A DNA stretch of 64,000 nt. It comes from Trueperaceae bacterium. GTDB taxonomy: Bacteria > Deinococcota > Deinococci > Deinococcales > Trueperaceae. This document shows, in pieces, positions 7,647 through 44,359 of this stretch. Made by a program: the position numbers and the translations under genes. Location: positions 224,001-288,000 of the forward strand of contig JAXHNB010000006.1 of the NCBI GenBank assembly GCA_034520945.1. Direction: 5' to 3'. How positions within the stretch are numbered: the first letter of the stretch is position 1; each line of letters starts with the position of its first letter. Under the pieces are notes generated by a model, which ran no database searches, was not told the origin of the DNA, and worked only from the letters and a program-made list of their open reading frames with translations.

Positions 7647-8432
7647 TCAGCGGCCCGTGGACCCCGCCTCCGCGCCATCACGAACGGCGGCGACGACCTC
7701 GTTCGCCCGTGCGCGCAGGTGGCCGAGGTCGGTGTCCGCCGTCACGAAGCCGAAGCCGCGCGCCAGCATCTCGCGCGCGTAGGCGGGGGACTTGCAGAAG
7801 ATGCCGGCGGGGACCCCGTGCGCCGCCGCGCGCTCCAAAAGGTGATCGAGGGCGTCCGGCACGGGCCCATCGCGGAAATCGGCGCCCGGAGGGCCGCCCA
7901 GGGCTTGCGACAGGTCGGCGGGCCCGACGAACACCATGTCCAGCTCGGGCACGCTCAAAACCTCGTCCAGCGCGTTCAGCGCGGCGCGGGTCTCGATCAT
8001 GGCGATGGCCAGGACCGTGTCGTTGGCCTCCGCGGCGTAGTCCGGCCCGCCGTAGAACGCGGCGCGGGTGGGGCCGTAGCTGCGGCGGCCGCGCGGGGGG
8101 TAGCGGCAGGCGGACACCAGGGCTCGCACGTCGTCGGCCCCTTCGATCATGGGGGCGATCACGCCGTACGCGCCGAGGTCCAGGGCCTTCATGATCCGGC
8201 CCGGTTCGTTCCAGGCGACCCGCACCAACGGCACGGTGTCGGTGGTGGAGAGGGCCTGCAGGGCGCTCAACAACTCGGCGTCGTCGACCGCCCCGTGTTG
8301 CTGATCCACGGTGACGGCGTCGAAGCCGGCGTGCGCCAACGCTTCGGCGACGAGGGGGTGGCCGGCCGTCAACCAGCCGGAGAGCACCGGACGGCCGTGT
8401 CGGAGGGCTTGCTGGACAGGATTCGGGCGCAT
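7647..8432 (-). CDS. HpcH/HpaI aldolase family protein
   Basis: [50 protein letters not shown]. Confidence 0.9.
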
Positions 8433-8513
8433 GGCTCAGCCTATCGTGCCCGGCAGCGTGGCGCGACGGTCGAGGGGGCACATGCCCCCCGGCTGCGGCG
8501 GTAGCGTGGGGCC

Positions 8514-9704
8514 ATGTCCCGTGCCCTGATCGACCACCTCGGCCAGCAGCTCGAGGCCCTCCGCGCCGAAGGCCTCTATAAGCACGAACGGGTGCTCACC
8601 TCCGCCCAGCAGGCCGAGATCACCGTGTCGGACGGCGCGGAGGTGTTGAACCTGTGCGCCAACGACTACCTGGGCCTCGCCAACGATCCCCGCATCAATG
8701 ATGCGGCCAAGCGGGGGATCGACACGCGCGGGTTCGGGCTGGCCTCGGTGCGGTTCATCTGTGGGACGCAGGACGTGCACAAGGAGCTCGAGGCGCGCCT
8801 GGCCGACTTCGTCGGCTGCGAGGAGGCGATCTTGTACGCCTCGTGCTTCGACGCCAACGGCGGACTGTTCGAGACGTTGCTGGGCCCCGAGGACGCGGTA
8901 ATCAGCGACGCGTTGAACCACGCCAGCATCATCGACGGCATCCGCCTGTGCAAGGCGCGCCGCTTGCGGTACGCCAACGACGACATGGCCGACCTCGAGG
9001 CCAAACTCCGCGAGGCCCAGGACGCCCGCTTCCGGCTGATCGCCACCGACGGCGTGTTCTCGATGGACGGGATCGTCGCGGATCTGGAGGCGATCTGCGA
9101 CCTGGCCGACCGCTACGACGCGTTGGTGATGGTGGACGACTGCCACGCCACCGGCTTCATGGGGGCCGAGGGGCGGGGCAGCGCGGAGCATCGCGGCGTG
9201 CTGGGCCGCGTCGACATCGTCACCAGCACGCTGGGCAAGGCGCTGGGCGGGGCGAGCGGCGGCTTCACCGCCGCCCGGGGCGAGATCGTGCGCTGGTTGC
9301 GGCAGCGCAGCCGGCCGTACCTGTTCTCGAACAGCGTCGCGCCGCCGGTGGTCACGGCGTCGCTGGCGGTGCTGGACCTGCTGGAGGGGTCGGACGAGCT
9401 GCGCGCGCGCTTGCAGGACAACGCCGCGTGGTTTCGCGCCGAGATGGCGGCGGCCGGGTTCCGGCTGGCGGGCGAGGGTCACCCGATCGTGCCGGTGATG
9501 ATCGGCGACGCCGCGTTGGCCTCCCGCATGGCCGAGCGGCTGCTGGAGGAGGGGATCTACGCCATCGCGTTCTCGTACCCGGTGGTGCCCCGGGGCGAGG
9601 CCCGCATCCGCACGCAGATGTCGGCGCTGCACACGCGTGCGCAGTTGCAGCGCGCGGTCGACGCGTTCGTACGCGTCGGCCGCGAACTCGGGGTGGTGGC
9701 ATGA
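8514..9704 (+). CDS. kbl: Glycine C-acetyltransferase (2-amino-3-ketobutyrate CoA ligase)
   Basis: [48 protein letters not shown]; adjacent to tdh. Confidence 0.96.
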
Positions 9705-31600: not shown

Positions 31601-32440
31601 TCAGTCCTCGGCGCGATGCGGCACGCTGAGGATCGGGACCGGACTGGAGCGCAGGAGGGCGTCGGCCCGGCTGCCGAGCAGCAGGCCGATGGCGCTGGCG
31701 TGATGCCGAACGCCCACGCAGATCACGTCGGCGTCGATCTCGTGTGCGACCTCGGGCAGCACGTGGATCGGGTCGCCCTGGCGCAGGATGTGCTGCTTGG
31801 CACGGTCGTGCGCCATCTCCGACATGGCCTCGGAGGCACGACGGGCGTAGTCGGTGTCTTCGCGGTAGCGCGGATCGTCCACGACGTGCACCAGCGCGGT
31901 CTCGATCCCGTGATCATTGAGGCGGTCGGCGAAGTGCCAGGCGTAGCGGCTGGCGTCGCCGAAGTCGGTCGCGACCAGCACGCGGCGCACCACGAGGTCG
32001 GTGGTTTCGTCACGCACGGTGAGGACCGGCACCGTGCTGCGGCGCACCATGCGGCCGGCCAGACCGCCGAGGAAGTACGCGTCCAACCGGTTCTGGCCGT
32101 GCGCACCCATCACGATGAGGTCGAATCCCTCCGCGGCCTCCAACAGCTCCTGGACGGGCCGGCCCCAGCGAAGCTCGTGCGTGCCGCCCTCGGAGGACAG
32201 GTTGCGAAGCCGTTCGTGAATGCGTCGCACTTCGGTCTTGCGCGCCTCCTCGATGCGGGCCAAAAGTTCGGCGTTCAGGTTGTCGAAGCTGGGTTGGAGC
32301 CATCCACGCTGACCGTTCTCGAAGCGCTGCTGCACATGGACGATGTGGAGGCTCCCGTCGGTGCGGTGCATCAGGTCCAGCGCCATGGCGCGGGCCTTCT
32401 CGGCGGTGTGCGAAAAGTCGGTGGGGTGGAGGATCTTCAT
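31601..32440 (-). CDS. Universal stress protein (tandem USP domains)
   Basis: KILHPTDFS...DLIVMGAHG; second domain RVLVATDFG...LLLGSRAD. Confidence 0.92.
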   Translation of the reverse strand: MKILHPTDFSHTAEKARAMALDLMHRTDGSLHIVHVQQRFENGQRGWLQPSFDNLNAELLARIEEARKTEVRRIHERLRNLSSEGGTHELRWGRPVQELLEAAEGFDLIVMGAHGQNRLDAYFLGGLAGRMVRRSTVPVLTVRDETTDLVVRRVLVATDFGDASRYAWHFADRLNDHGIETALVHVVDDPRYREDTDYARRASEAMSEMAHDRAKQHILRQGDPIHVLPEVAHEIDADVICVGVRHHASAIGLLLGSRADALLRSSPVPILSVPHRAED

Positions 32441-32729
32441 GGCGGCACCCTTCCTGAGCGCTCGGGGCGGACCGTGCGGAGCCGACCCGGTGCGTAGTGC
32501 GCTCACGGTAGCACGCGACCGCAGTGGCGTCTCAGCCGCGTCACCGACAGCACCGTCGACCGTTCTCTGCGACGTCCCCGCCTTCGGGGCGCGGCGCGGC
32601 GACCTCGGTCGCGACAGCAAACGACCCCCGTGGTGGCGGGCTGCCGGGGGGCGCCACGGGGGTCGTGGGTCCGGTGCGGTCGTGCCGCGTCCGGACAGGT
32701 CCATGGGAGCACGCGTACCGCCGGGCCGC

Positions 32730-32748
32730 TGTCGGTCCTTATCCGACA
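32730..32748. promoter_or_regulatory. TGTCGG-N7-CCGACA palindrome between divergent USP genes
   Basis: Perfect 6-bp arms; a related copy at 34052-34070. Confidence 0.45.
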
Positions 32749-32850
32749 CGGGGCGTGGTGTCTTCGTGCTCCCCCGGTGGGCGCGAACGTGCCATCCTGG
32801 GGGCACGGACGAACTGGGTGGCCGGCACGACCGGCCGGGGAGGTGAAACC

Positions 32851-33312
32851 GTGTACGACCGTATCCTCATGCCGACCGACGGCAGCGCATGCGCACGTCA
32901 CGCGACCAAGGAAGGGCTCGAGCTGGCGAAGCGGTTGGGCGCCACCGTCACGTTCCTGCACGTGGTGGAGAACCCCTTGGTCGCCGGCTACGCGGCGCCG
33001 GAGGCGCTGCCGTACTCGGCCCAGCTGTACCAGGACCTGAAGAAGGCCGCCAACGACATTCTCGAAGAGGCGTTGGCGCGGGCGGAGGCGGCGGGGGTCG
33101 ACGCCGAGGCGACGCTGGTCGAGGACCGGCGGCCCTCGGATGCGATTCGGGACGCCGAGCCGGGCCACGATCTGGTGATCATGGGTACGCACGGGAGGCG
33201 TGGCCTCGACCGCTTCATGTTCGGCTCGGTCACCGAGGGGGCGTTGCGCGGCGCGACCAAGCCGTACCTGATCATTCGTGCTCAGGACGACGAGGAGGCG
33301 CGCAATGGCTGA
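32851..33312 (+). CDS. Universal stress protein
   Basis: YDRILMPTDGS...DLVIMGTHGRRGLDRFMFGSVTE; GGAGGTG RBS. Confidence 0.94.
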   Translation: MYDRILMPTDGSACARHATKEGLELAKRLGATVTFLHVVENPLVAGYAAPEALPYSAQLYQDLKKAANDILEEALARAEAAGVDAEATLVEDRRPSDAIRDAEPGHDLVIMGTHGRRGLDRFMFGSVTEGALRGATKPYLIIRAQDDEEARNG

Positions 33313-33835
33313 GGTGCGGATCCTGGTGCCGCTGGACGGCTCCGAGTTCAGCCAGCGCGCCTTGGACGTGCTCGGGCGCCTGTTCTCCGCGGACCGTGAC
33401 CGCGTGACGTTGTTGCGCGTGGGTACGGCGCCCGGTTCGGTCGGCGGCCCGCCGCCGCGCCGGACGGTGACGTCCGAGCTGATGCTGGACGAACCCGAGG
33501 AGCCGGTTCGCGTGTACGACAGTCAGGAGTGGGACAGCGCCCGCGGCGAGCTGCGCGACGCCTTGGGCCCCGCCGCCCGCCGTCTCGAGAGCGAGGGGTG
33601 GCGCGTCGAACGGGCGACGGCGTTCGGGGATCCGGCCGAAGAGATCGAGGCGATCTGCCGTGACGAAGGCATCGACGTGGTGGTGATGGCGACGCACGGC
33701 AGGACCGGTCTATCGCGCGCCCTGTTGGGCAGTGTGGCGGAGCGCGTCCTGCGTCGGCTGGAGGTGCCAGTGACGATGGTGCGGCCGAGCGAAGTGCGAA
33801 CGGGGGAGACGCAGGCGTCTGAAACGCACGCGTAG
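33305..33835 (+). CDS. Universal stress protein
   Basis: RILVPLDGSEFS...VVMATHGRTGLSRALLGSVAE. Confidence 0.94.
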   Translation: MAEVRILVPLDGSEFSQRALDVLGRLFSADRDRVTLLRVGTAPGSVGGPPPRRTVTSELMLDEPEEPVRVYDSQEWDSARGELRDALGPAARRLESEGWRVERATAFGDPAEEIEAICRDEGIDVVVMATHGRTGLSRALLGSVAERVLRRLEVPVTMVRPSEVRTGETQASETHA

Positions 33836-33925
33836 CCTCTCGGCGGGCCGACGCGCGCCGCCGCGCGGGACCGGAGCGGGCCCCGCGCGGCGGCGGGTGT
33901 GTGCTCGGCGGTACGCGCGGTGCGC

Positions 33926-34017
33926 AAAAAAAAGCGGCCCCCGTGGCTGCGGGCTGCCGGGGGGACGCCACGGGGACCAGTTGCCCGGGAGCGGGGGGGT
34001 CGCCTCGTCCCCCGGGC
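33926..34017 (-). ncRNA. Candidate small RNA with two C-rich-loop hairpins and a U8 terminator
   Basis: Minus strand: 9-bp stem with a C7 loop, 12-bp stem with a C6 loop, then T8. Both flanking genes are on the plus strand. Confidence 0.55.
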
Positions 34018-34190
34018 CACCTACAGCAAACCACGAAATCGCGCGTAAGGATGTCGGTGTTCTTCCCACGGCGCCTGTCCGCCGGTCGTGACTGTCCCGC
34101 GGCGCAGGCATCGCGTAGCATGATCGCGGCGCGGGCGCCGAGGCAGCTTTCGCGACGTGGGCCGGCGGATTCCGGTCCGAGGAGACCACC

Positions 34191-35300
34191 GTGCGACACC
34201 TGACCCGCTCGCCGACCGCCGTGCCGGCACGGGACGCCGCCGCGCGGCGCACGCACGAACTCGAGACGTTGCACGCCCTGGGACGCGAGCTGGCCCGGGC
34301 TTCGGACGTGTCCGAGGTGCTGGCGTGCAGCCTGCGCGATCTGGTCGACATGGGGTGGTTCTCCTGCGGCGAGGCCTACCGGCTCGTGAACGGGGCGCCG
34401 GTACCCGTGGCGCTGGGTCGTTGCCGCTATGCCGACGTCGAAGCGTGCGGCATGCGCGGCGTTCTGCTCGAACGCGCCGGCCAGTGGATCGATGCCGAGG
34501 CGATCGGCGACCAGGACGGCTGGACGTTCGTGCCGATCGACCGGCGCGCGTTGTTGGCCCTCGCGCAGACCGATCCGCCCGCCGATACCTCGACGAGCTT
34601 CCTGCAGGCGGTGGTCGAGATCGTGTCCTCGGCGCTGAAGCGCGCCTCGCTGCACGGGCGCTTGGCCGACAAGGAGCGGCAGCGCTCCCGGCTTCTGGCC
34701 GCGCTCCTGAACGCCCAGGAGGAGGAGCGGGCCCGCATCTCCCGCGATCTTCACGATCAGATCGGGCAGGCCCTCACCGCCCTGCTGCTCGGGCTGGACG
34801 AGTCGATCGCGCGACCGGACGCGCACCGCCTGACGAAGCTGAAGGAGCTGACCTCCGTGACGCTGGACGACGTGCGCCGGATCGCGCTCGACCTCAGGCC
34901 GTCCCTCCTGGACGAGTTGGGGCTCGAGGCGGCGGTGCGGCGGTACGCCCGTGATGTGCGGGAACGCTACGCGCTCGAGGTCGGGGTGGAGGTCCATCTG
35001 CCGCGTCTGTCGAGGCAGAGCGAGACGGTGCTGTACCGCGTCGCGCAGGAGGCCCTCACCAACGTGGTGCGGCATGCACGGGCCTCGTCGGCGTCGGTGG
35101 TGGCGATGCTCGCCGAGGGGACGGTCCAGTGGGTCGTCGAGGACGACGGTATCGGGTTCGACGCGTCGTCCCTCGAATCGGCCGAACGGGTCGGCCTGAT
35201 CGGCATGCGGGAGCGCCTGGAGCTTCTGGGCGGGTCGTTGCGGATCGAGTCGGCGCCTGGACGCGGGACCACGGTGCACGCGCGCCTTCCCCGCCGCTGA
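34191..35300 (+). CDS. Cytoplasmic sensor histidine kinase (HisKA_3, NarX/UhpB type)
   Basis: QEEERARISRDLHDQIGQ, QEALTNVVRH, EDDGIGF, GLIGMRER; no TM segment. Confidence 0.93.
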   Translation: MRHLTRSPTAVPARDAAARRTHELETLHALGRELARASDVSEVLACSLRDLVDMGWFSCGEAYRLVNGAPVPVALGRCRYADVEACGMRGVLLERAGQWIDAEAIGDQDGWTFVPIDRRALLALAQTDPPADTSTSFLQAVVEIVSSALKRASLHGRLADKERQRSRLLAALLNAQEEERARISRDLHDQIGQALTALLLGLDESIARPDAHRLTKLKELTSVTLDDVRRIALDLRPSLLDELGLEAAVRRYARDVRERYALEVGVEVHLPRLSRQSETVLYRVAQEALTNVVRHARASSASVVAMLAEGTVQWVVEDDGIGFDASSLESAERVGLIGMRERLELLGGSLRIESAPGRGTTVHARLPRR

Positions 35301-35342
35301 ACGTCCCTTCGCCCGCTGAGCGCGTTCTTGTACGCTGAGTGC

Positions 35343-35984
35343 ATGAAGAAGCCGTTGCGGCTGTTCGTCGTCGACGATCACGCCATCGTCCGGGCCGGGG
35401 TCTGCATGTTGTTGGACGCCCGGGACGGCTTCGAGGTGGTGGGCGAGGCGGACAGCGGCGAAGAGGCGCTTCGAGCCGCGCCGGAGTTGGCGCCGGACGT
35501 GGTGGTGCTGGACCTGTCCCTGCCGGGGATCAACGGGATCGAGACGGCGCGCCGCCTGCGAACGCTTCTGCCCGGCGCGCACTTCGTGGCGTTGTCCATG
35601 CACGAGGACCCGGCGTACGTGCAGGGGTTCCTGGAGGCGGGCGGCTCGGGCTACGTGCCCAAGAGCTCGCTGGAGACGCAGTTGGAGGACGCCATCCTGG
35701 CGGTGTCGCGCGGGGAGTACTACGCGCCGGCCCGCCTGTTGGCGGAGCTGGCACGCGACATGGCCAACGGTGATCCCCAACGTCAGGCGCGCCTGACCGG
35801 TCGGGAGTCGGAGGTGGTGCGCCAGATCGCGCACGGAAGTACCTACCGGGAGATCGCCGAAGCGCTCGGCATCAGCGAGAAGACCGTGGCCACCTACCGT
35901 GAGCGTGCCAGCGAGAAGCTCGGCGTGCGTACGCGTGCGGACTTGGTTCGCTGGGCGCTCCGCAACGGCATGCTGGACGACTGA
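35343..35984 (+). CDS. NarL/LuxR family response regulator
   Basis: VDDHAIVR, VVLDLSLPG, LTGRESEV...EIAEALGISEKTV. Confidence 0.94.
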   Translation: MKKPLRLFVVDDHAIVRAGVCMLLDARDGFEVVGEADSGEEALRAAPELAPDVVVLDLSLPGINGIETARRLRTLLPGAHFVALSMHEDPAYVQGFLEAGGSGYVPKSSLETQLEDAILAVSRGEYYAPARLLAELARDMANGDPQRQARLTGRESEVVRQIAHGSTYREIAEALGISEKTVATYRERASEKLGVRTRADLVRWALRNGMLDD

Positions 35985-36043
35985 CGTCGAGGGGCGCGCG
36001 CGGGGCGACGGCGGGGCTCGCCGGCCCGTGCTAAAACTTCCGC

Positions 36044-36493
36044 ATGGAACTATCTGCCCGGCAGGTCGCGTTTCTGGAGTTCGCGCGCGGCCTGTTGCGC
36101 CTCGACCGAAGCGTGCACGAGGTGATCGACCGGGCGGTCGCGACCGAGCTCGGCCTTCGGGCCCGTCAGGTGTTCGTGCTGGCCGCGTTGGAGCGCGGTG
36201 CCCGCCACCCGGGCGCGGTGGCCCGGCGGTTGAACCTTCCCGCCCCGAGCGTGACGCGGACCGTGGAGGGCCTGGTCGCCGCCGGCCACGTGACGCGTCG
36301 GCGCAGCACCGGCGACCGGCGCCGGGTCGAGCTCGCGCTCACCGATCGGGGACAGGCGTTGTTGGCTCGCGCCCGCGGCACGTTGTCGCAGGGCCTGGCG
36401 GACGCCTGGCCCCACCTCGACACCGCGCGGGTGGCGGATCTGGCCGAGGGTCTCGCGGAGATGGTCGACGCCCGGGAGGACCCCGTTGGCTGA
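36044..36493 (+). CDS. MarR family regulator
   Basis: PSVTRTVEGLVAAGHVTR...DRRRVELALTDRG. Confidence 0.88.
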   Translation: MELSARQVAFLEFARGLLRLDRSVHEVIDRAVATELGLRARQVFVLAALERGARHPGAVARRLNLPAPSVTRTVEGLVAAGHVTRRRSTGDRRRVELALTDRGQALLARARGTLSQGLADAWPHLDTARVADLAEGLAEMVDAREDPVG

Positions 36494-38069
36494 CGCCACG
36501 CACCGAGAGAAGCTGTTGGCGTTCGGGGGCGTGCTGGCGGTGCTGTTCCTGTCCTCGCTGAATCTGACGGTGGTGGGCACGGCCTTGCCGCGCATCATCG
36601 CGGAGTTGGAGGGCTTCGACCTCTACGCTTGGGCGTTCACGAGCTTCTCGTTGGCGTCGACCGTCACGCTGCCGATCTACGGCCGCATCAGCGACGCCAT
36701 CGGCCGGCGGCCCGTGCTCCTGTTCGGCATCGTGTCGTTCACCACCGCCTCGGTCCTGACCGGACTCAGCCAGTCGATGCTGCAGTTGGTGGTGTTCCGT
36801 GCCGTGCAGGGGCTGGGTGGCGGTGCGCTGATCAGCATGACCTGGGCCGCGATCGGCGACATCTTCACGCCCCGCGAGCGCGGGCGCTACCAAGGGCTCA
36901 CCGGCGCCGTCTTCGGCGTGTCCAGCGTGATCGGGCCGCTGATCGGGGGCCTGTTCACGGACACCATCGGCTGGCGATGGGTGTTCTTCGTGAACGTGCC
37001 GGTCGCATTGGCTGCCTACGAAGTGGTCCGACGCTACCTGCCGAAGTCCGTCCGGCGCCCTGGATCCGGCATCGACCTGGCCGGGACGGTGTTCCTGGTG
37101 GCGGGAACGGTGCCGTTGCTGTTGGCCCTGACCTGGGCCGGCACCACCCGGCCGTGGGGCGACCCGGTGGTGATCTGGGCCTTCGCCGGGTCGGCGGTGG
37201 CGCTGGCGGCCTTCGTCGTCACGCAGATACGGAGTTCCCACCCGACGTTGGATCCCGCGGCGTTCCGCGACCCCACCTACGCGCTGGCCAACGCCGCCGC
37301 CTTCCTGACCGGCATCGGCCTGTTCGGCGCGATCATCTACCTCCCGCTGTACATCCAGGGGGTGCAGGGCGGGAGTGCGGCCGCGTCCGGGTTCGTGCTG
37401 GCGCCGTTGATGATCGGCGTGGTGGTGGGGTCCACCGTGAGTGGATGGTTGGCCAGCCGCACCGGCCGCTACCGCCGCTGGATCGCGATGGGGATCGCGT
37501 TCATGACCGTCGGATTCGTGCTGGCCGCCCAATTCGGCCCGTCCACGTCCACCTGGGTCGTGGTGGCGGTGATGGTCGTGCTCGGCGCTGGGATCGGACC
37601 GACCAACTCGCTGCTGACGCTCGCGGTGCAGAACGCCCTTCCCATTGCGCAGTTGGGCGTGGCGACCGGCGCCAACCAGTTCTTCCGTCAGATCGGCGGC
37701 ACGCTCGGCGTGACGGTGTTCGGCACCATGGTGGCCGGCCACGTCCGCAACGGCCTTCCCGGGTTGCTGCCGGGGGGTGGCGAGGGGTTGCCTGCGGGGC
37801 TGGCCTCGACCTTGAGCGATCCGAACCTTCTGACCGACCCGGTCCGGCTGGCCAGGGTGCGGGCGACGGTCGAGCCGTTGCTGGACGAGGGCGCGTTCGA
37901 GACGTTCCTGGCCTCGCTCCGCGCCTTGCTGGGCACGGGCCTCAGCGAGGTGTTCCTGGTCGGCGCGGCGGTGAGCCTAGTGGCGCTGGGGCTCGCGGCC
38001 TGCATGCCGTCCGCCGCGCTTCAGGACACCGTGGTCGCCCCAGAGCGGTCGTCCGCGTCCACGTCGTGA
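36486..38069 (+). CDS. MFS drug:H+ antiporter (DHA2, 14-TM)
   Basis: TVVGTALPRI, YGRISDAIGRR, GPLIGGLFTDTIGWRWVFFVNVP, FFRQIGG. Confidence 0.92.
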   Translation: MADATHREKLLAFGGVLAVLFLSSLNLTVVGTALPRIIAELEGFDLYAWAFTSFSLASTVTLPIYGRISDAIGRRPVLLFGIVSFTTASVLTGLSQSMLQLVVFRAVQGLGGGALISMTWAAIGDIFTPRERGRYQGLTGAVFGVSSVIGPLIGGLFTDTIGWRWVFFVNVPVALAAYEVVRRYLPKSVRRPGSGIDLAGTVFLVAGTVPLLLALTWAGTTRPWGDPVVIWAFAGSAVALAAFVVTQIRSSHPTLDPAAFRDPTYALANAAAFLTGIGLFGAIIYLPLYIQGVQGGSAAASGFVLAPLMIGVVVGSTVSGWLASRTGRYRRWIAMGIAFMTVGFVLAAQFGPSTSTWVVVAVMVVLGAGIGPTNSLLTLAVQNALPIAQLGVATGANQFFRQIGGTLGVTVFGTMVAGHVRNGLPGLLPGGGEGLPAGLASTLSDPNLLTDPVRLARVRATVEPLLDEGAFETFLASLRALLGTGLSEVFLVGAAVSLVALGLAACMPSAALQDTVVAPERSSASTS

Positions 38070-43321: not shown

Positions 43322-44359
43322 TCACGCCAGCAAGACCAAGGCGAAGCCGCTGGTCAGTGCGGCGGCGAAGGCCAGGACGAGGTACCACGCGAACACGCTG
43401 CGCCGGACCAGGGGCAGCACGGCCATCGCGGCCGGGATGCTGGTGGCGCCGCCGGCCACCATGAACGCCAGGCCCGCGCCGGCCGGGAGGCCCAACTCCA
43501 TCAGCCCCGCCACGGTCGGGATGGCGGCGTAGCCGTTCAGGTAGGCGGGCACGCCCAGCACCGCCGCGGCGGGCACCGAGGCCCAGCCCGCGCCGAGGGT
43601 CGCGCCGATGGCGTCGGCCGGGATCCAGGCCAGCATCAGGCTCTCCAGCAAGAACGCCAGGGCGAGCCACACCAACAGGTAGCCCCCCACCTCACCCGCG
43701 GCGCGCACGAACGCCGCCCGGCGCGCAGGCTCCCGCCAGAAACGCCCCACGGTCTCGCCCGACAGGGCGGCGTCGCAGGCGCACTGGATGCGCCGCAGCG
43801 GGTTGGCGAATACGTGGCTGCGTTGCAGCGCCCAGGTGGCGTAGCCGGCCAGGAGGCCGGTCCCGATCGCCGCGGCCAGGCGTGCCAGCGCGAAGGTCGT
43901 GCCGAGTTCGCCCAGGGTGAGGACGAACATCTCGGGATCCATCAGCGGCGACGCCAGCCAGAAGGCCATCACGCCCGGCAGGGGCGTGCCTGCTGCCAGC
44001 AGCGCTGCGACGACCGGCACCACACCGCAGGAGCAGAAGGGACTGATCGCCCCGAACAGGGCGGCGACCGGCACCACGACGGCCAGCCGCCCGGCGAAGG
44101 CGCGGGCTGCCAGGCGGTCCAGGCCGCTGGCGCGGCTCCAGGCGGCGAACACGACCGACACGGCGAGAAAGGGGGCCAGCCGCAGCAGGCTCTCGGCGGT
44201 GAACGCGAGGCTGCGCGCCGCCTGGTCCGGCGCCGTCGCGCTCAGGAGGGCCAGCGTGAGCGGGATGGCCCACAGCGCCTTGTCGGCGCGACGGACGGCC
44301 TGGGCGGCCGTGGTCGCGGCGCGGCGAAGGGCGGGGGGTACGGGCGCGGCGTCGAGCAT
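43322..44359 (-). CDS. ArsP/DUF318-family permease
   Basis: SPFCSCGVVP, FWLASPLMDP, YLNGYAAIP, GGATSIPA; next to arsR. Confidence 0.88.
   Translation of the reverse strand: MLDAAPVPPALRRAATTAAQAVRRADKALWAIPLTLALLSATAPDQAARSLAFTAESLLRLAPFLAVSVVFAAWSRASGLDRLAARAFAGRLAVVVPVAALFGAISPFCSCGVVPVVAALLAAGTPLPGVMAFWLASPLMDPEMFVLTLGELGTTFALARLAAAIGTGLLAGYATWALQRSHVFANPLRRIQCACDAALSGETVGRFWREPARRAAFVRAAGEVGGYLLVWLALAFLLESLMLAWIPADAIGATLGAGWASVPAAAVLGVPAYLNGYAAIPTVAGLMELGLPAGAGLAFMVAGGATSIPAAMAVLPLVRRSVFAWYLVLAFAAALTSGFALVLLA

What the first reader, a model, noticed from the sequence alone, without database searches (positions are those of the whole stretch)
33926..34070. Antisense sRNA candidate with two C-rich loops inside the USP / two-component locus
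Seen: the minus strand of the 355-bp gap between a USP gene and the kinase (both plus strand) reads as two hairpins and a tail. Hairpin 1 (34017-33983) has a 9-bp stem and a loop containing CCCCCCC. Hairpin 2 (33978-33936) has a 12-bp stem and a loop containing CCCCCC. GC-T8 follows. Both stem mismatches are G-U on the minus strand, and no minus-strand gene nearby needs this terminator. Known: exposed C-rich loops are the anti-Shine-Dalgarno seeds of RsaE/RoxS and cuckoo-type sRNAs. Inference: a ~95-nt trans-acting sRNA that pairs with G-rich RBSs. In a genome rich in leaderless mRNAs it would act only on the leadered subset.
Basis: partly seen in the sequence, partly recalled or inferred. Interest (0 to 1): 0.75.

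Follow-up and report, generated by a model that had tools for sequence, protein, structure and literature searches.

The report
Conserved small RNA beside stress genes
The flagged hairpins are a second, lineage-specific copy of a small structured RNA gene that is conserved next to a stress-protein and sensor-kinase cluster in Truepera-like bacteria and is probably switched on by that cluster's own regulator; what the RNA acts on is still unknown.

Summary
On the minus strand there are two hairpins (34017-33983 and 33978-33936), then GC and T8. T8 is the only A/T run of 7 or more in this 71.8% GC window.

It is not an isolated oddity. A paralogue (copy B, about 32696-32611, minus strand) lies 1.3 kb away. 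Copy B's orthologue is present in 26 of 31 informative Trueperaceae loci, always antisense to the kinase and about 200-300 nt from the first USP gene.

Hairpin 2 covaries: 95.3% of cells pair, 9 of 15 stem pairs change on both sides, and 0 of 500 shuffles reach these values. U-G wobbles fix the strand, and the apical motif CCCCCGGCA(G/A)CCCGC is conserved.

Upstream lies a conserved palindrome, TGTCGGA-N6-CCGAC(A/G), between two divergent promoter-like sites. Copy A is a duplicate of this whole module and occurs only in the window.

Best reading: a regulator-controlled small RNA of about 90 nt. Hairpin 1 and its C7 loop are not conserved. No anti-Shine-Dalgarno pairing with neighbouring genes was found. 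No Rfam family matches. Expression is untested.

The parts
34052..34070 (.). Copy A regulatory palindrome (minus strand CGTGGGAAGAACACCGACA), a near-intact version of the family box TGTCGGA-N6-CCGAC(A/G)
   Evidence: it has 2 mismatches to the box. Only this site and 32730-32748 match at 2 or fewer mismatches in 64 kb. Matches at 3 mismatches are at chance level (24 observed against 31 expected). The TGTGGGA variant of the left half occurs naturally in L013, L024 and L035.
34025..34033 (-). Copy A extended -10-like block TGgTTTGCT. The predicted transcription start is about 34019-34017, at the foot of hairpin 1.
   Evidence: TGnTnnnnT lies 17-18 nt after the palindrome in 14 of 27 rows (shuffled expectation 0.01). 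The start site is inferred, not measured.
33983..34017 (-). Hairpin 1 of copy A (9-bp stem, loop with C7): a variable 5' stem-loop
   Evidence: A 5' hairpin is predicted in 26 of 27 family rows, but its sequence is lineage-specific.
33936..33978 (-). Hairpin 2 of copy A (12-13 bp stem). The conserved apical motif CCCCCCGGCAGCCCGC is at 33949-33964, and the fold predicts an inner CGG/CCG stem capped by CAGC.
   Evidence: The stem covaries and the apical motif is nearly invariant in 27 sequences.
33926..33933 (-). U8 tail, giving a canonical intrinsic terminator together with hairpin 2
   Evidence: the only A/T run of 7 or more in the window.
34116..34121 (+). TAGCAT -10 hexamer on the plus side of box A, 45 nt from the palindrome. 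It is the predicted promoter for the kinase and regulator genes, giving a leader of about 60 nt with GAGGAG at 34179-34184 before GTG 34191.
   Evidence: the same geometry (box, 43-45 nt, then [T/C]AnnnT) precedes USP1 in 22 of 27 rows (shuffled expectation 0.10).
32730..32748 (.). Copy B regulatory palindrome TGTCGGATAAGGACCGACA (perfect)
32703..32711 (-). Copy B extended -10-like block TGcTCCCAT. The predicted start is about 32697-32695.
32611..32696 (-). Copy B RNA body: hairpin 1 (32696-32669), hairpin 2 (32666-32621, apical motif 32636-32651) and a weak U-rich tail UUGCUGUCGC (32620-32611). This is the copy that has orthologues in relatives.
   Evidence: (D19).
32793..32798 (+). CATCCT -10-like hexamer on the plus side of box B, the predicted USP1 operon promoter
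34191..35984 (+). HisKA_3 histidine kinase (34191-35300) and NarL/LuxR-type response regulator (35328-35984), the candidate regulator of the box
   Evidence: Pfam; the regulator matches VraR at 1.9e-31, DevR at 1.5e-26 and NarL at 1.6e-26; the kinase core is DesK-like.
31601..33835 (.). USP genes of the cluster: tandem USP (32440-31601, minus), USP1 (32851-33312, plus) and USP2 (33278-33835, plus)

Best explanation
The flagged region is the window-specific second copy of a module conserved in Trueperaceae.

The module has a 19-bp palindrome, TGTCGGA-N6-CCGAC(A/G). This is most likely the binding site of the adjacent NarL-type response regulator. It sits between two divergent promoters. The plus side drives the USP or kinase-regulator genes. 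The minus side places the palindrome centre at about -43, overlapping the -35 position. It would transcribe a small RNA of about 90 nt (up to about 120 nt in some lineages).

The RNA has three parts:
- a variable 5' stem-loop, probably only protective;
- a conserved 3' stem-loop, with a C-rich internal loop and a short CGG/CCG stem capped by CA(G/A)C, which is the functional surface;
- a U-rich tail.

In copy A the tail is a perfect U8, so transcription stops before it runs antisense into the USP genes.

Shown: the structure, its strand, its conservation and covariation, the palindrome, and the fixed geometry.

Inferred: that the promoter fires, that the regulator binds the palindrome, and that the RNA is released as a discrete species.

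Most speculative (about one chance in three): the C-rich apical motif base-pairs with G-rich mRNA segments, as in 6C or RsaE-type sRNAs. A protein partner is about as likely.
For: 1. Paralogy. Copy B has an identical 16-nt apical motif, a compensated stem and the same two-hairpin layout.

2. Orthology. A motif scan of all 80 fetched loci (1.24 Mb) gave 30 hits at 2 or fewer mismatches. Of these, 25 lie at one conserved site in 25 Trueperaceae-type loci, always on the strand opposite the kinase. With the filters-off model hit in L026 (19.2 bits, E 1.6e-4), 26 of 31 loci that include the USP1 upstream region carry it.

3. Covariation in hairpin 2:
- 95.3% of 446 cells are paired, against 87.0 +/- 0.8 in shuffles (0 of 500 reach it).
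- 9 pairs change on both sides, against 4.5 +/- 1.0 (0 of 500).
- The covariation score is 0.217, against 0.100 (0 of 500).
- Slid controls pair only 25-48% of cells.
- RNAalifold finds the same helix independently.
- L026 adds a fourth, entirely different stem around the same loop core.

4. Strand. Pair 14-52 is U-G in 14 of 26 distinct rows, and other wobbles occur. These would be C-A mismatches on the other strand.

5. Promoter geometry. TGnTnnnnT lies 17-18 nt after the palindrome in 14 of 27 rows (shuffled 0.01). By eye, most of the others carry TCCACT, TCTCAT or TTCACT at the same place. The same spacing of box, 20 nt, then TATCAT precedes the kinase gene in L010.

6. Box specificity. 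At 1 mismatch or fewer there are 24 hits in 556 kb of Trueperaceae loci, nearly all upstream of USP or kinase genes, against 2 in 680 kb of loci from other phyla.

7. Independence from the downstream gene. The downstream same-strand gene lies 60-170 nt away, or 600-740 nt away, or is a different gene.

8. Terminator. U8 is unique in 64 kb. Family tails hold 3.4 U per 10 nt against 1.4 expected.

9. Precedents, read as passages. DosR-regulated DrrS has a binding site overlapping -35, 'similar to class II' promoters (PMC5360333). 6C sRNA binds G-rich mRNA regions through C-rich loops (PMC6486639).
Against: - There are no expression data of any kind.
- The sigma-70 consensus scan found 0 promoter-like sites in 33000-35000. 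The minus-side hexamer usually lacks the A at its second position, and there is no -35 element. The promoter reading therefore depends on an activator.
- 13 of 27 rows fail the strict TGnTnnnnT pattern.
- Outside copy A the tails are poor U-tracts (2-5 U in 10 nt), so termination in relatives is uncertain and read-through into downstream genes is possible.
- No pairing above chance with the translation-initiation regions of the seven conserved neighbour genes: 1 of 24 for USP1 and 0 for the others.
- The hairpin-1 C-loop is not conserved.
- 5 of 31 informative lineages lack the RNA but keep the gene cluster, and four of these five still carry a box (L010, L020, L027, L028; L030 has none upstream of USP1). 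The RNA is therefore dispensable there.
- The double changes separate only three or four lineage types, so independent compensatory events are few. One measure, further pair types, was not significant (108 of 500).
- The rows were chosen by their loop motif, which inflates the apparent conservation of the loop, though not of the stems.
- The regulator is no closer to DosR/DevR than to VraR or NarL.
Confidence: 0.5

Rival explanations
1. The conserved apical motif is a docking site for a protein (or another non-mRNA partner). The RNA would act as a decoy, sponge or scaffold rather than by base-pairing with ribosome-binding sites.
For: The conserved part is a small, defined shape: an asymmetric C-rich internal loop, a 3-bp stem and a CA(G/A)C cap, invariant in 27 of 27 sequences at the inner pairs. 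In the L006-type lineage hairpin 1 carries a similar CCCGACAGCCCGAC motif, so that lineage has two such sites. No base-pairing target was found among the neighbours.
Against: No candidate protein was identified. An invariant loop is equally expected for a seed. The second motif copy is confined to one lineage. L026 has one C fewer in the loop, which would leave the predicted inner stem with only a 3-nt cap.
Confidence: 0.2
2. The element is a cis-acting 5' leader or attenuator of the downstream same-strand gene (the tandem USP). Hairpin 2 would be a conditional terminator.
For: In 12 loci the tandem-USP start lies only about 60-170 nt downstream on the same strand, as it does for window copy B (about 170 nt). 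The tails are weak, so read-through is plausible.
Against: The downstream gene is not constant. It lies 600-740 nt away in L001, L022 and L024. In the ten L006-type loci no tandem USP was found, and in L020, one of them, the next same-strand gene is a small zinc-ribbon protein. By eye, several relatives and window copy B have a separate canonical extended -10 between hairpin 2 and the tandem USP. Copy A has no downstream same-strand gene at all and has a full terminator. No alternative (antiterminator) pairing was seen.
Confidence: 0.13
3. Copy A in particular is a passenger. The module was duplicated to give the kinase-regulator pair its own box-controlled promoter. On this view the RNA half is dispensable, and U8 was selected only to stop antisense transcription into the USP genes.
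For: Copy A carries the complete plus-side promoter (box, 45 nt, then TAGCAT) in front of the kinase. L010 independently has a box directly upstream of its kinase with no hairpins. No relative has a copy A.
Against: Hairpin 2 of copy A keeps the full 16-nt apical motif and a fully paired stem although the flanks have diverged. The need for a strong terminator itself implies that the minus-side promoter is active.
Confidence: 0.15
4. It is only a terminator, bidirectional or otherwise, for the USP operon.
For: There is a strong GC-rich hairpin in the gap after a USP gene.
Against: The U-tract is on the minus strand only. The plus strand reads A8, then the hairpins, then AGUUGCCC. No credible minus-strand gene ends there. 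The conserved copy in relatives lies upstream of the USP1 promoter, where nothing terminates. A terminator does not need an invariant 15-nt loop.
Confidence: 0.03
5. It is a DNA-level element, such as a cruciform or paired protein-binding sites, and not an RNA.
For: In two lineage types each stem arm (GGTCACCGTGACC) is itself nearly palindromic, so it could be a duplicated dimer site.
Against: The window-type arms (GGTCCCCGTGGC) are not palindromic. U-G wobbles in 14 of 26 rows at one pair, and others elsewhere, are tolerated only in RNA of one strand. The four stem types differ while staying complementary.
Confidence: 0.04

Closest known systems
6C sRNA (B11) of Actinobacteria
   Same: It is a small RNA of a high-GC organism with C-rich loops displayed on hairpins. 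In that family the loops bind G-rich, often ribosome-binding-site-proximal, mRNA segments without a chaperone (PMC6486639: abstract and passages). Window copy A, with C7 and C6 in its two loops, looks alike.
   Different: No Rfam model matches, even at E up to 10. The phylum is different. Only one of the two loops is conserved here. The conserved motif is CCCCCGGCA(G/A)CCCGC with an inner stem, not a plain C-run. The functional hairpin doubles as the terminator. No target is known.
DrrS (MTS1338), the DosR-regulated sRNA of Mycobacterium tuberculosis
   Same: It is an sRNA that belongs to the regulon of a NarL-family response regulator linked to USP genes. Its regulator site overlaps the -35 region, 'similar to class II' promoters (PMC5360333: passages). 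Here the palindrome centre is about 43 nt from the predicted start.
   Different: There is no sequence or structural relationship (no Rfam hit). [quoted passage not shown] The box sequence differs from my recalled DosR consensus. The regulator here is not specifically DosR-like.
RsaE/RoxS and 'cuckoo'-type sRNAs
   Same: The concept of C-rich unpaired motifs acting as anti-Shine-Dalgarno seeds.
   Different: There is no Rfam match. CCCCC is not a perfect complement of the GGAGG-type sites seen before the neighbouring genes. Pairing with neighbour ribosome-binding sites is at chance level.
Rho-independent terminator
   Same: Copy A's hairpin 2 plus U8 fits the definition fully.
   Different: The loop is long (19 nt) and conserved across a bacterial family, which termination does not require. 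Orthologues have only weak U-tails.

Membership tests
Structured RNA (generic test) | Base pairs maintained by compensatory changes on the transcribed strand | tested here: met
   95.3% of cells are paired, 9 of 15 stem pairs show double changes, and 0 of 500 shuffles reach the observed values on four of five measures. Slid controls pair 25-48%. Wobble pairs fit the minus strand only. One search agrees independently. The changes fall into only 3-4 lineage types.
Rho-independent terminator | GC-rich stem followed immediately by a U-tract | tested here: met
   Copy A has a 12-13 bp stem, then GC and U8. For the 26 other family rows, the 10 nt after the stem hold 2-5 U, which is inconclusive for them.
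6C sRNA | Match to the curated covariance model in Rfam | tested here: not met
   No 6C hit at gathering score in the window. None at E up to 10 around both copies or around two relatives' elements.
6C sRNA | Two conserved C-rich hairpin loops | tested here: not met
   Only the hairpin-2 motif is conserved. Hairpin-1 loops are GUUCU, CUAC, AACA and so on in other lineages, and L022 appears to lack hairpin 1. C7 plus C6 is private to copy A.
6C sRNA / RsaE-type mechanism | C-rich loop pairs with G-rich mRNA sites at or near ribosome-binding sites | not testable with these tools
   Only seven neighbour genes could be compared across loci, and none paired above chance. No whole genome was available for a CopraRNA-type prediction.
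Response-regulator-activated sRNA (DrrS-like arrangement) | Regulator site overlapping the -35 position of the sRNA promoter | tested here: inconclusive
   The palindrome lies at a fixed 17-18 nt from a TGn + T-N4-T block in 14 of 27 rows. The same spacing precedes a canonical TATCAT for the kinase in L010. The start site and the regulator's binding are inferred.
Response-regulator-activated sRNA | Discrete small transcript induced by the regulator | not testable with these tools
   No transcript data are available.
cis-regulatory 5' leader / attenuator | Constant downstream gene on the same strand | tested here: not met
   The downstream gene and its distance vary. There is none for copy A.
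Bidirectional terminator | U-tract after the stem on both strands, at the end of a transcription unit | tested here: not met
   On the plus strand the hairpins are preceded by A8 and followed by AGUUGCCC. The orthologous site lies in a divergent promoter region.
Interspersed repeat / mobile element | Many dispersed copies | tested here: inconclusive
   There are only two copies in 64 kb and one per related 20-kb locus. Whole genomes could not be searched.

The most novel reading that the evidence does not exclude
The invariant apical motif may not be a generic anti-Shine-Dalgarno seed. It could instead be a dedicated recognition surface that ties an RNA into the USP/two-component stress circuit.

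In the window's lineage, duplication has placed the exact complement of this motif into the plus-strand spacer between USP2 and the kinase. RNA from either copy could then form a 16-nt kissing complex with read-through operon mRNA just upstream of the kinase. That would be a newly evolved, self-targeting feedback loop on the sensor-regulator pair.

More broadly, this would be the first described family-wide regulatory RNA of Trueperaceae, with a partner (protein or RNA) of a kind not yet known.
Probability: 0.12. Interest if true: 0.7.

Novelty: new member of a known kind. Interest (0 to 1): 0.5.

Why it matters
Regulatory RNAs of the Deinococcus-Thermus lineage are poorly known. My two library searches found nothing on Truepera sRNAs, and no Rfam family matches.

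This locus offers three things:
- a compact RNA supported by covariation;
- a clear candidate operator and candidate regulator beside it;
- a natural experiment, with two diverged copies in one genome and five related lineages that lost the RNA but kept the gene cluster, four of them with a box upstream of USP1.

That makes the regulator-to-sRNA link, the terminator requirement in a 72% GC genome and the role of the C-rich motif directly testable. The palindrome also gives a handle for defining the regulon of a USP-linked NarL-type system outside the Actinobacteria.

Tried and rejected
- Rfam at gathering score on the whole window, and at E up to 10 on 32300-34300, L015 8300-9000 and L009 1100-1700. 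Only chance-level hits appeared (SECIS_3, mir-623, sbcD, P17).
- Small-protein reading. The 69-aa minus ORF 34230-34021 is Arg-rich, has no Pfam family at E up to 1, and has GC3 of 0.66 against 0.88-0.90 in real genes. Other ORFs overlapping the gap have no family.
- Repeat or mobile-element reading. The 43-nt hairpin at 3 or fewer mismatches occurs once. The 16-nt motif at 2 or fewer mismatches occurs at the two copies plus one unrelated site at 44102.
- Consensus promoter and terminator scan of 33000-35000: 0 and 0. The terminator was missed because of the tool's loop limit.
- Covariance model R1 over the window plus 80 loci (1.3 Mb) gave 54 matches at E up to 1. They were the 27 training sequences, 22 opposite-strand echoes of the same sites, and 5 weak hits (17.8-23 bits in L046 twice, L051, L005 and L059) that I did not pursue. 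With filters off, L010 had none.
- Pairing of the apical loop with the -45..+12 regions of USP1, USP2, kinase, regulator, tandem USP, PGM and MFS against mononucleotide shuffles gave 1 of 24, 0 of 3, 0 of 8, 0 of 6, 0 of 19, 0 of 6 and 0 of 4 at p below 0.05. Only genes whose match began within residues 1-3 were used.
- Listing of G-runs of six or more in the window as possible targets was inconclusive. A crude gene caller and a set of 279 ORFs were made but not used further.
- A cross-lineage alignment of hairpin 1 gave no consensus helix.
- Calling the system DosRS: the regulator matches VraR, DevR and NarL about equally, and only the kinase's catalytic core matches solved structures. I therefore call it only a NarL-family system next to USP genes.

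Not checked:
There was therefore no genome-wide or cross-phylum search for further copies of the RNA or the box.
- No paper supplements were read.

Full report
**Observation.**
- Hairpin 1 is at 34017-33983: a 9-bp stem with one G-U, and a 17-nt loop containing C7.
- Hairpin 2 is at 33978-33936: a 12-bp stem with one U-G, and a 19-nt loop containing C6.
- GC and T8 follow.

The fold is -53.7 kcal/mol, but only z = -1.94 against shuffles (9 of 200 fold as well). The plus strand gives z = -0.53. What is exceptional is T8. The window is 71.8% GC, and this is its only A/T run of 7 or more. The 69-aa minus ORF that ends 4 nt before hairpin 1 is not a gene. It is Arg-rich, has no Pfam match, and has GC3 of 0.66 against 0.88-0.90 in the real genes. 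No Rfam family matches.

**A second copy.** The repeat search showed an 81%-identical stretch at 32610-32651 (family D19). Reading it and aligning it gave a paralogue, copy B, on the minus strand. It has a shorter hairpin 1 and a hairpin 2 whose 16-nt apical motif CCCCCCGGCAGCCCGC is identical. Its stem carries a G-C to A-U exchange. Its tail is only weakly U-rich. Copy B lies in the divergent gap between a tandem-USP gene (32440-31601, -) and USP1 (32851-33312, +).

**Relatives.** A scan of one genome per species with the kinase returned 80 loci.
- L001-L035 are Trueperaceae or Deinococcales-type contigs, with 52-71% kinase identity.
- L036-L037 are Thermus.
- The rest are other phyla.
- The window's own genome was not among them.

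A fuzzy search for the apical motif over all 80 loci (1.24 Mb) gave 30 hits at 2 or fewer mismatches. Of these, 25 lie at one site in 25 of L001-L035, always on the strand opposite the kinase. Mapping the window's proteins onto the loci shows that this site is the orthologue of copy B. It lies between the tandem USP (-) and USP1 (+), about 200-300 nt from the USP1 start.

Four loci lack the upstream region (L005, L014, L023, L029). Of the 31 informative loci, 25 have the element. L026 has a divergent one that the model accepts with filters off (19.2 bits, E 1.6e-4). L020 has hairpin 2 deleted. L010, L027 and L028 keep only the palindrome, and L030 has none.

No relative has a second copy. The USP2-kinase gap is about 160 nt or less in relatives, except in L010. 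Copy A is therefore a duplication private to the window's lineage.

**Structure.** On the 27-row alignment A3, the hairpin-2 structure read from the window copy gives these values:
- 95.3% of 446 cells are paired, against 87.0 +/- 0.8 in shuffles.
- 9 of 15 stem pairs change on both sides, against 4.5 +/- 1.0.
- The covariation score is 0.217, against 0.100.
- For each of these, 0 of 500 shuffles reach the observed value.
- Slid controls pair 25-48% of cells.
- One measure, further pair types, is not significant (108 of 500).

RNAalifold finds the same helix. The inner CGG/CCG pairs and the motif CCCCCGGCA(G/A)CCCG are invariant. The U-G wobble at pair 14-52 in 14 of 26 distinct rows would be a C-A mismatch on the other strand, so the RNA is the strand antisense to the kinase.

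Caveats:
- The rows were picked by the loop motif, so loop conservation is inflated.
- The double changes separate only three lineage types, plus L026 as a fourth.

Hairpin 1 is a hairpin in 26 of 27 predicted RNAs. The exception is L022, where the RNA seems to start at hairpin 2. Its sequence, length and loop are lineage-specific. Within the L006-type lineage it has one covarying pair (GC:4, AU:3, GU:2) and several wobbles. Across lineages no consensus is found. The C7 loop is private to copy A.

**Promoter architecture.** Upstream of every element is a palindrome, TGTCGGA-N6-CCGAC(A/G). In the window it matches at 2 or fewer mismatches only at 32730-32748 and 34052-34070. At 1 mismatch or fewer it occurs 24 times in 556 kb of Trueperaceae loci, nearly all upstream of USP or kinase genes, against 2 times in 680 kb of loci from other phyla.

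On the minus side, 17-18 nt after the palindrome, 14 of 27 rows have TGnTnnnnT (shuffled expectation 0.01). By eye, most of the others carry TCCACT, TCTCAT or TTCACT at the same place. This puts a start at the foot of hairpin 1 and the palindrome centre near -43.

On the plus side, 43-45 nt after the palindrome, 22 of 27 rows have [T/C]AnnnT (shuffled 0.10). Examples are TACGCT, TAGGCT and CATGCT. A leader of about 50-60 nt and a GGAGG site follow before USP1.

Copy A has all of this, with TAGCAT at 34116-34121 ahead of the kinase. In L010 the spacing of box, 20 nt, then TATCAT precedes the kinase gene itself. In L027 and L028, which lack the RNA, a box precedes a TATGAT promoter of the tandem USP.

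The adjacent regulator is NarL-family, matching VraR, DevR and NarL about equally. That it binds the box is an inference from co-location. The consensus promoter scan found nothing in this region. The minus-side hexamer lacks the usual A at position 2 and has no -35, so it would need an activator.

**sRNA or leader.** The downstream same-strand gene varies.
- The tandem USP lies 60-170 nt away in 12 loci and 600-740 nt away in three.
- In the L006-type loci there is no tandem USP downstream, and in L020, one of them, a small zinc-ribbon gene follows instead.
- By eye, several loci have a separate extended -10 between hairpin 2 and the tandem USP.
- Copy A has no downstream gene and has a full terminator.

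Family tails hold 3.4 U per 10 nt against 1.4 expected, but only copy A has a true U-tract. A simple rationale is that only copy A would otherwise run antisense into the USP operon.

**Mechanism.** I rank a discrete, box-controlled small RNA first. Its functional surface is the hairpin-2 apical motif.

Pairing with G-rich mRNA sites, as shown for 6C sRNA (PMC6486639: abstract and passages), is plausible but unsupported here. The loop pairs no better than chance with the initiation regions of the seven conserved neighbour genes. A protein partner is about as likely.

A regulator site overlapping -35 of an sRNA promoter has a precedent in DosR-regulated DrrS (PMC5360333: passages).

In the window lineage, read-through USP2-kinase mRNA would carry the exact complement of the motif, so a cis-antisense or kissing interaction is possible. 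This is inference only.

**Novelty.** There is no Rfam match. Searches for 'Truepera' with 'sRNA', and for Deinococcus, small noncoding RNA and universal stress protein, found no description (listings only). It is a new family of a familiar kind.

**Unchecked.**
- Whole-genome copy number.
- Other phyla.
- Metagenome and viral collections, which were closed.
- Any expression evidence.

Noticed in passing
window 32730-32748 and 34052-34070; L001-L035 upstream of USP1 (for example L015 8763-8781): On the USP1 side, a further GTCGG half-site recurs about 4-6 nt beyond the palindrome (for example ...TCCGACA TGGGCGTCGGCG...). This suggests tandem regulator sites, as described for DosR promoters.
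   Followed up: partly
L010 8046-8585 and 9600-10000: This lower-GC relative carries several copies of a short interspersed repeat (units like CCCATTACTCATTAC... next to GGTGCTGCGAAGG) in both the USP1 upstream region and the USP2-kinase gap. It looks like a MITE-type element.
   Followed up: no
L020 about 8600-8760 (minus strand): The box, the promoter-like block and the 5' half of hairpin 1 are intact, but the rest of hairpin 1 and all of hairpin 2 are missing compared with its close relative L019. This is either a clean deletion or an assembly collapse.
   Followed up: partly
whole window: G/C homopolymers are strongly avoided. There are only 4 runs of 7 or more (all G on the plus strand) in 64 kb. 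Runs of 6 or more are asymmetric, with 31 G against 13 C on the plus strand.
   Followed up: no
L027 7926-8640, with similar sequence in L028 and L030 (plus strand): A flavodoxin-like ORF is inserted between the tandem USP and USP1 in the lineages that lack the RNA. L027 and L028 then have two boxes, one for each USP promoter.
   Followed up: partly
L020 about 8370-8500 and L010 about 8046-8180 (minus strand): A small zinc-ribbon protein (MIAVACPICEALIEID...; it resembles LysW by recall) is the next same-strand gene after the element, or after the box alone in L010.
   Followed up: no
window 32570-32595 (minus strand): A further small GC hairpin (CCCCG AAGG CGGGG) lies between copy B's tail and a TGcTACCGT extended -10 (about 32513-32505) that precedes the tandem-USP gene. 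L004 has a comparable GGGGGCG-AGG-CGCCCCC hairpin at the same place.
   Followed up: no
window 36044-36493 (+): An ORF of 149 aa between the regulator and the MFS transporter has a coding-like GC3 of 0.89. It was not scanned itself. The overlapping 220-aa ORF at 35899-36561 has no Pfam family.
   Followed up: no
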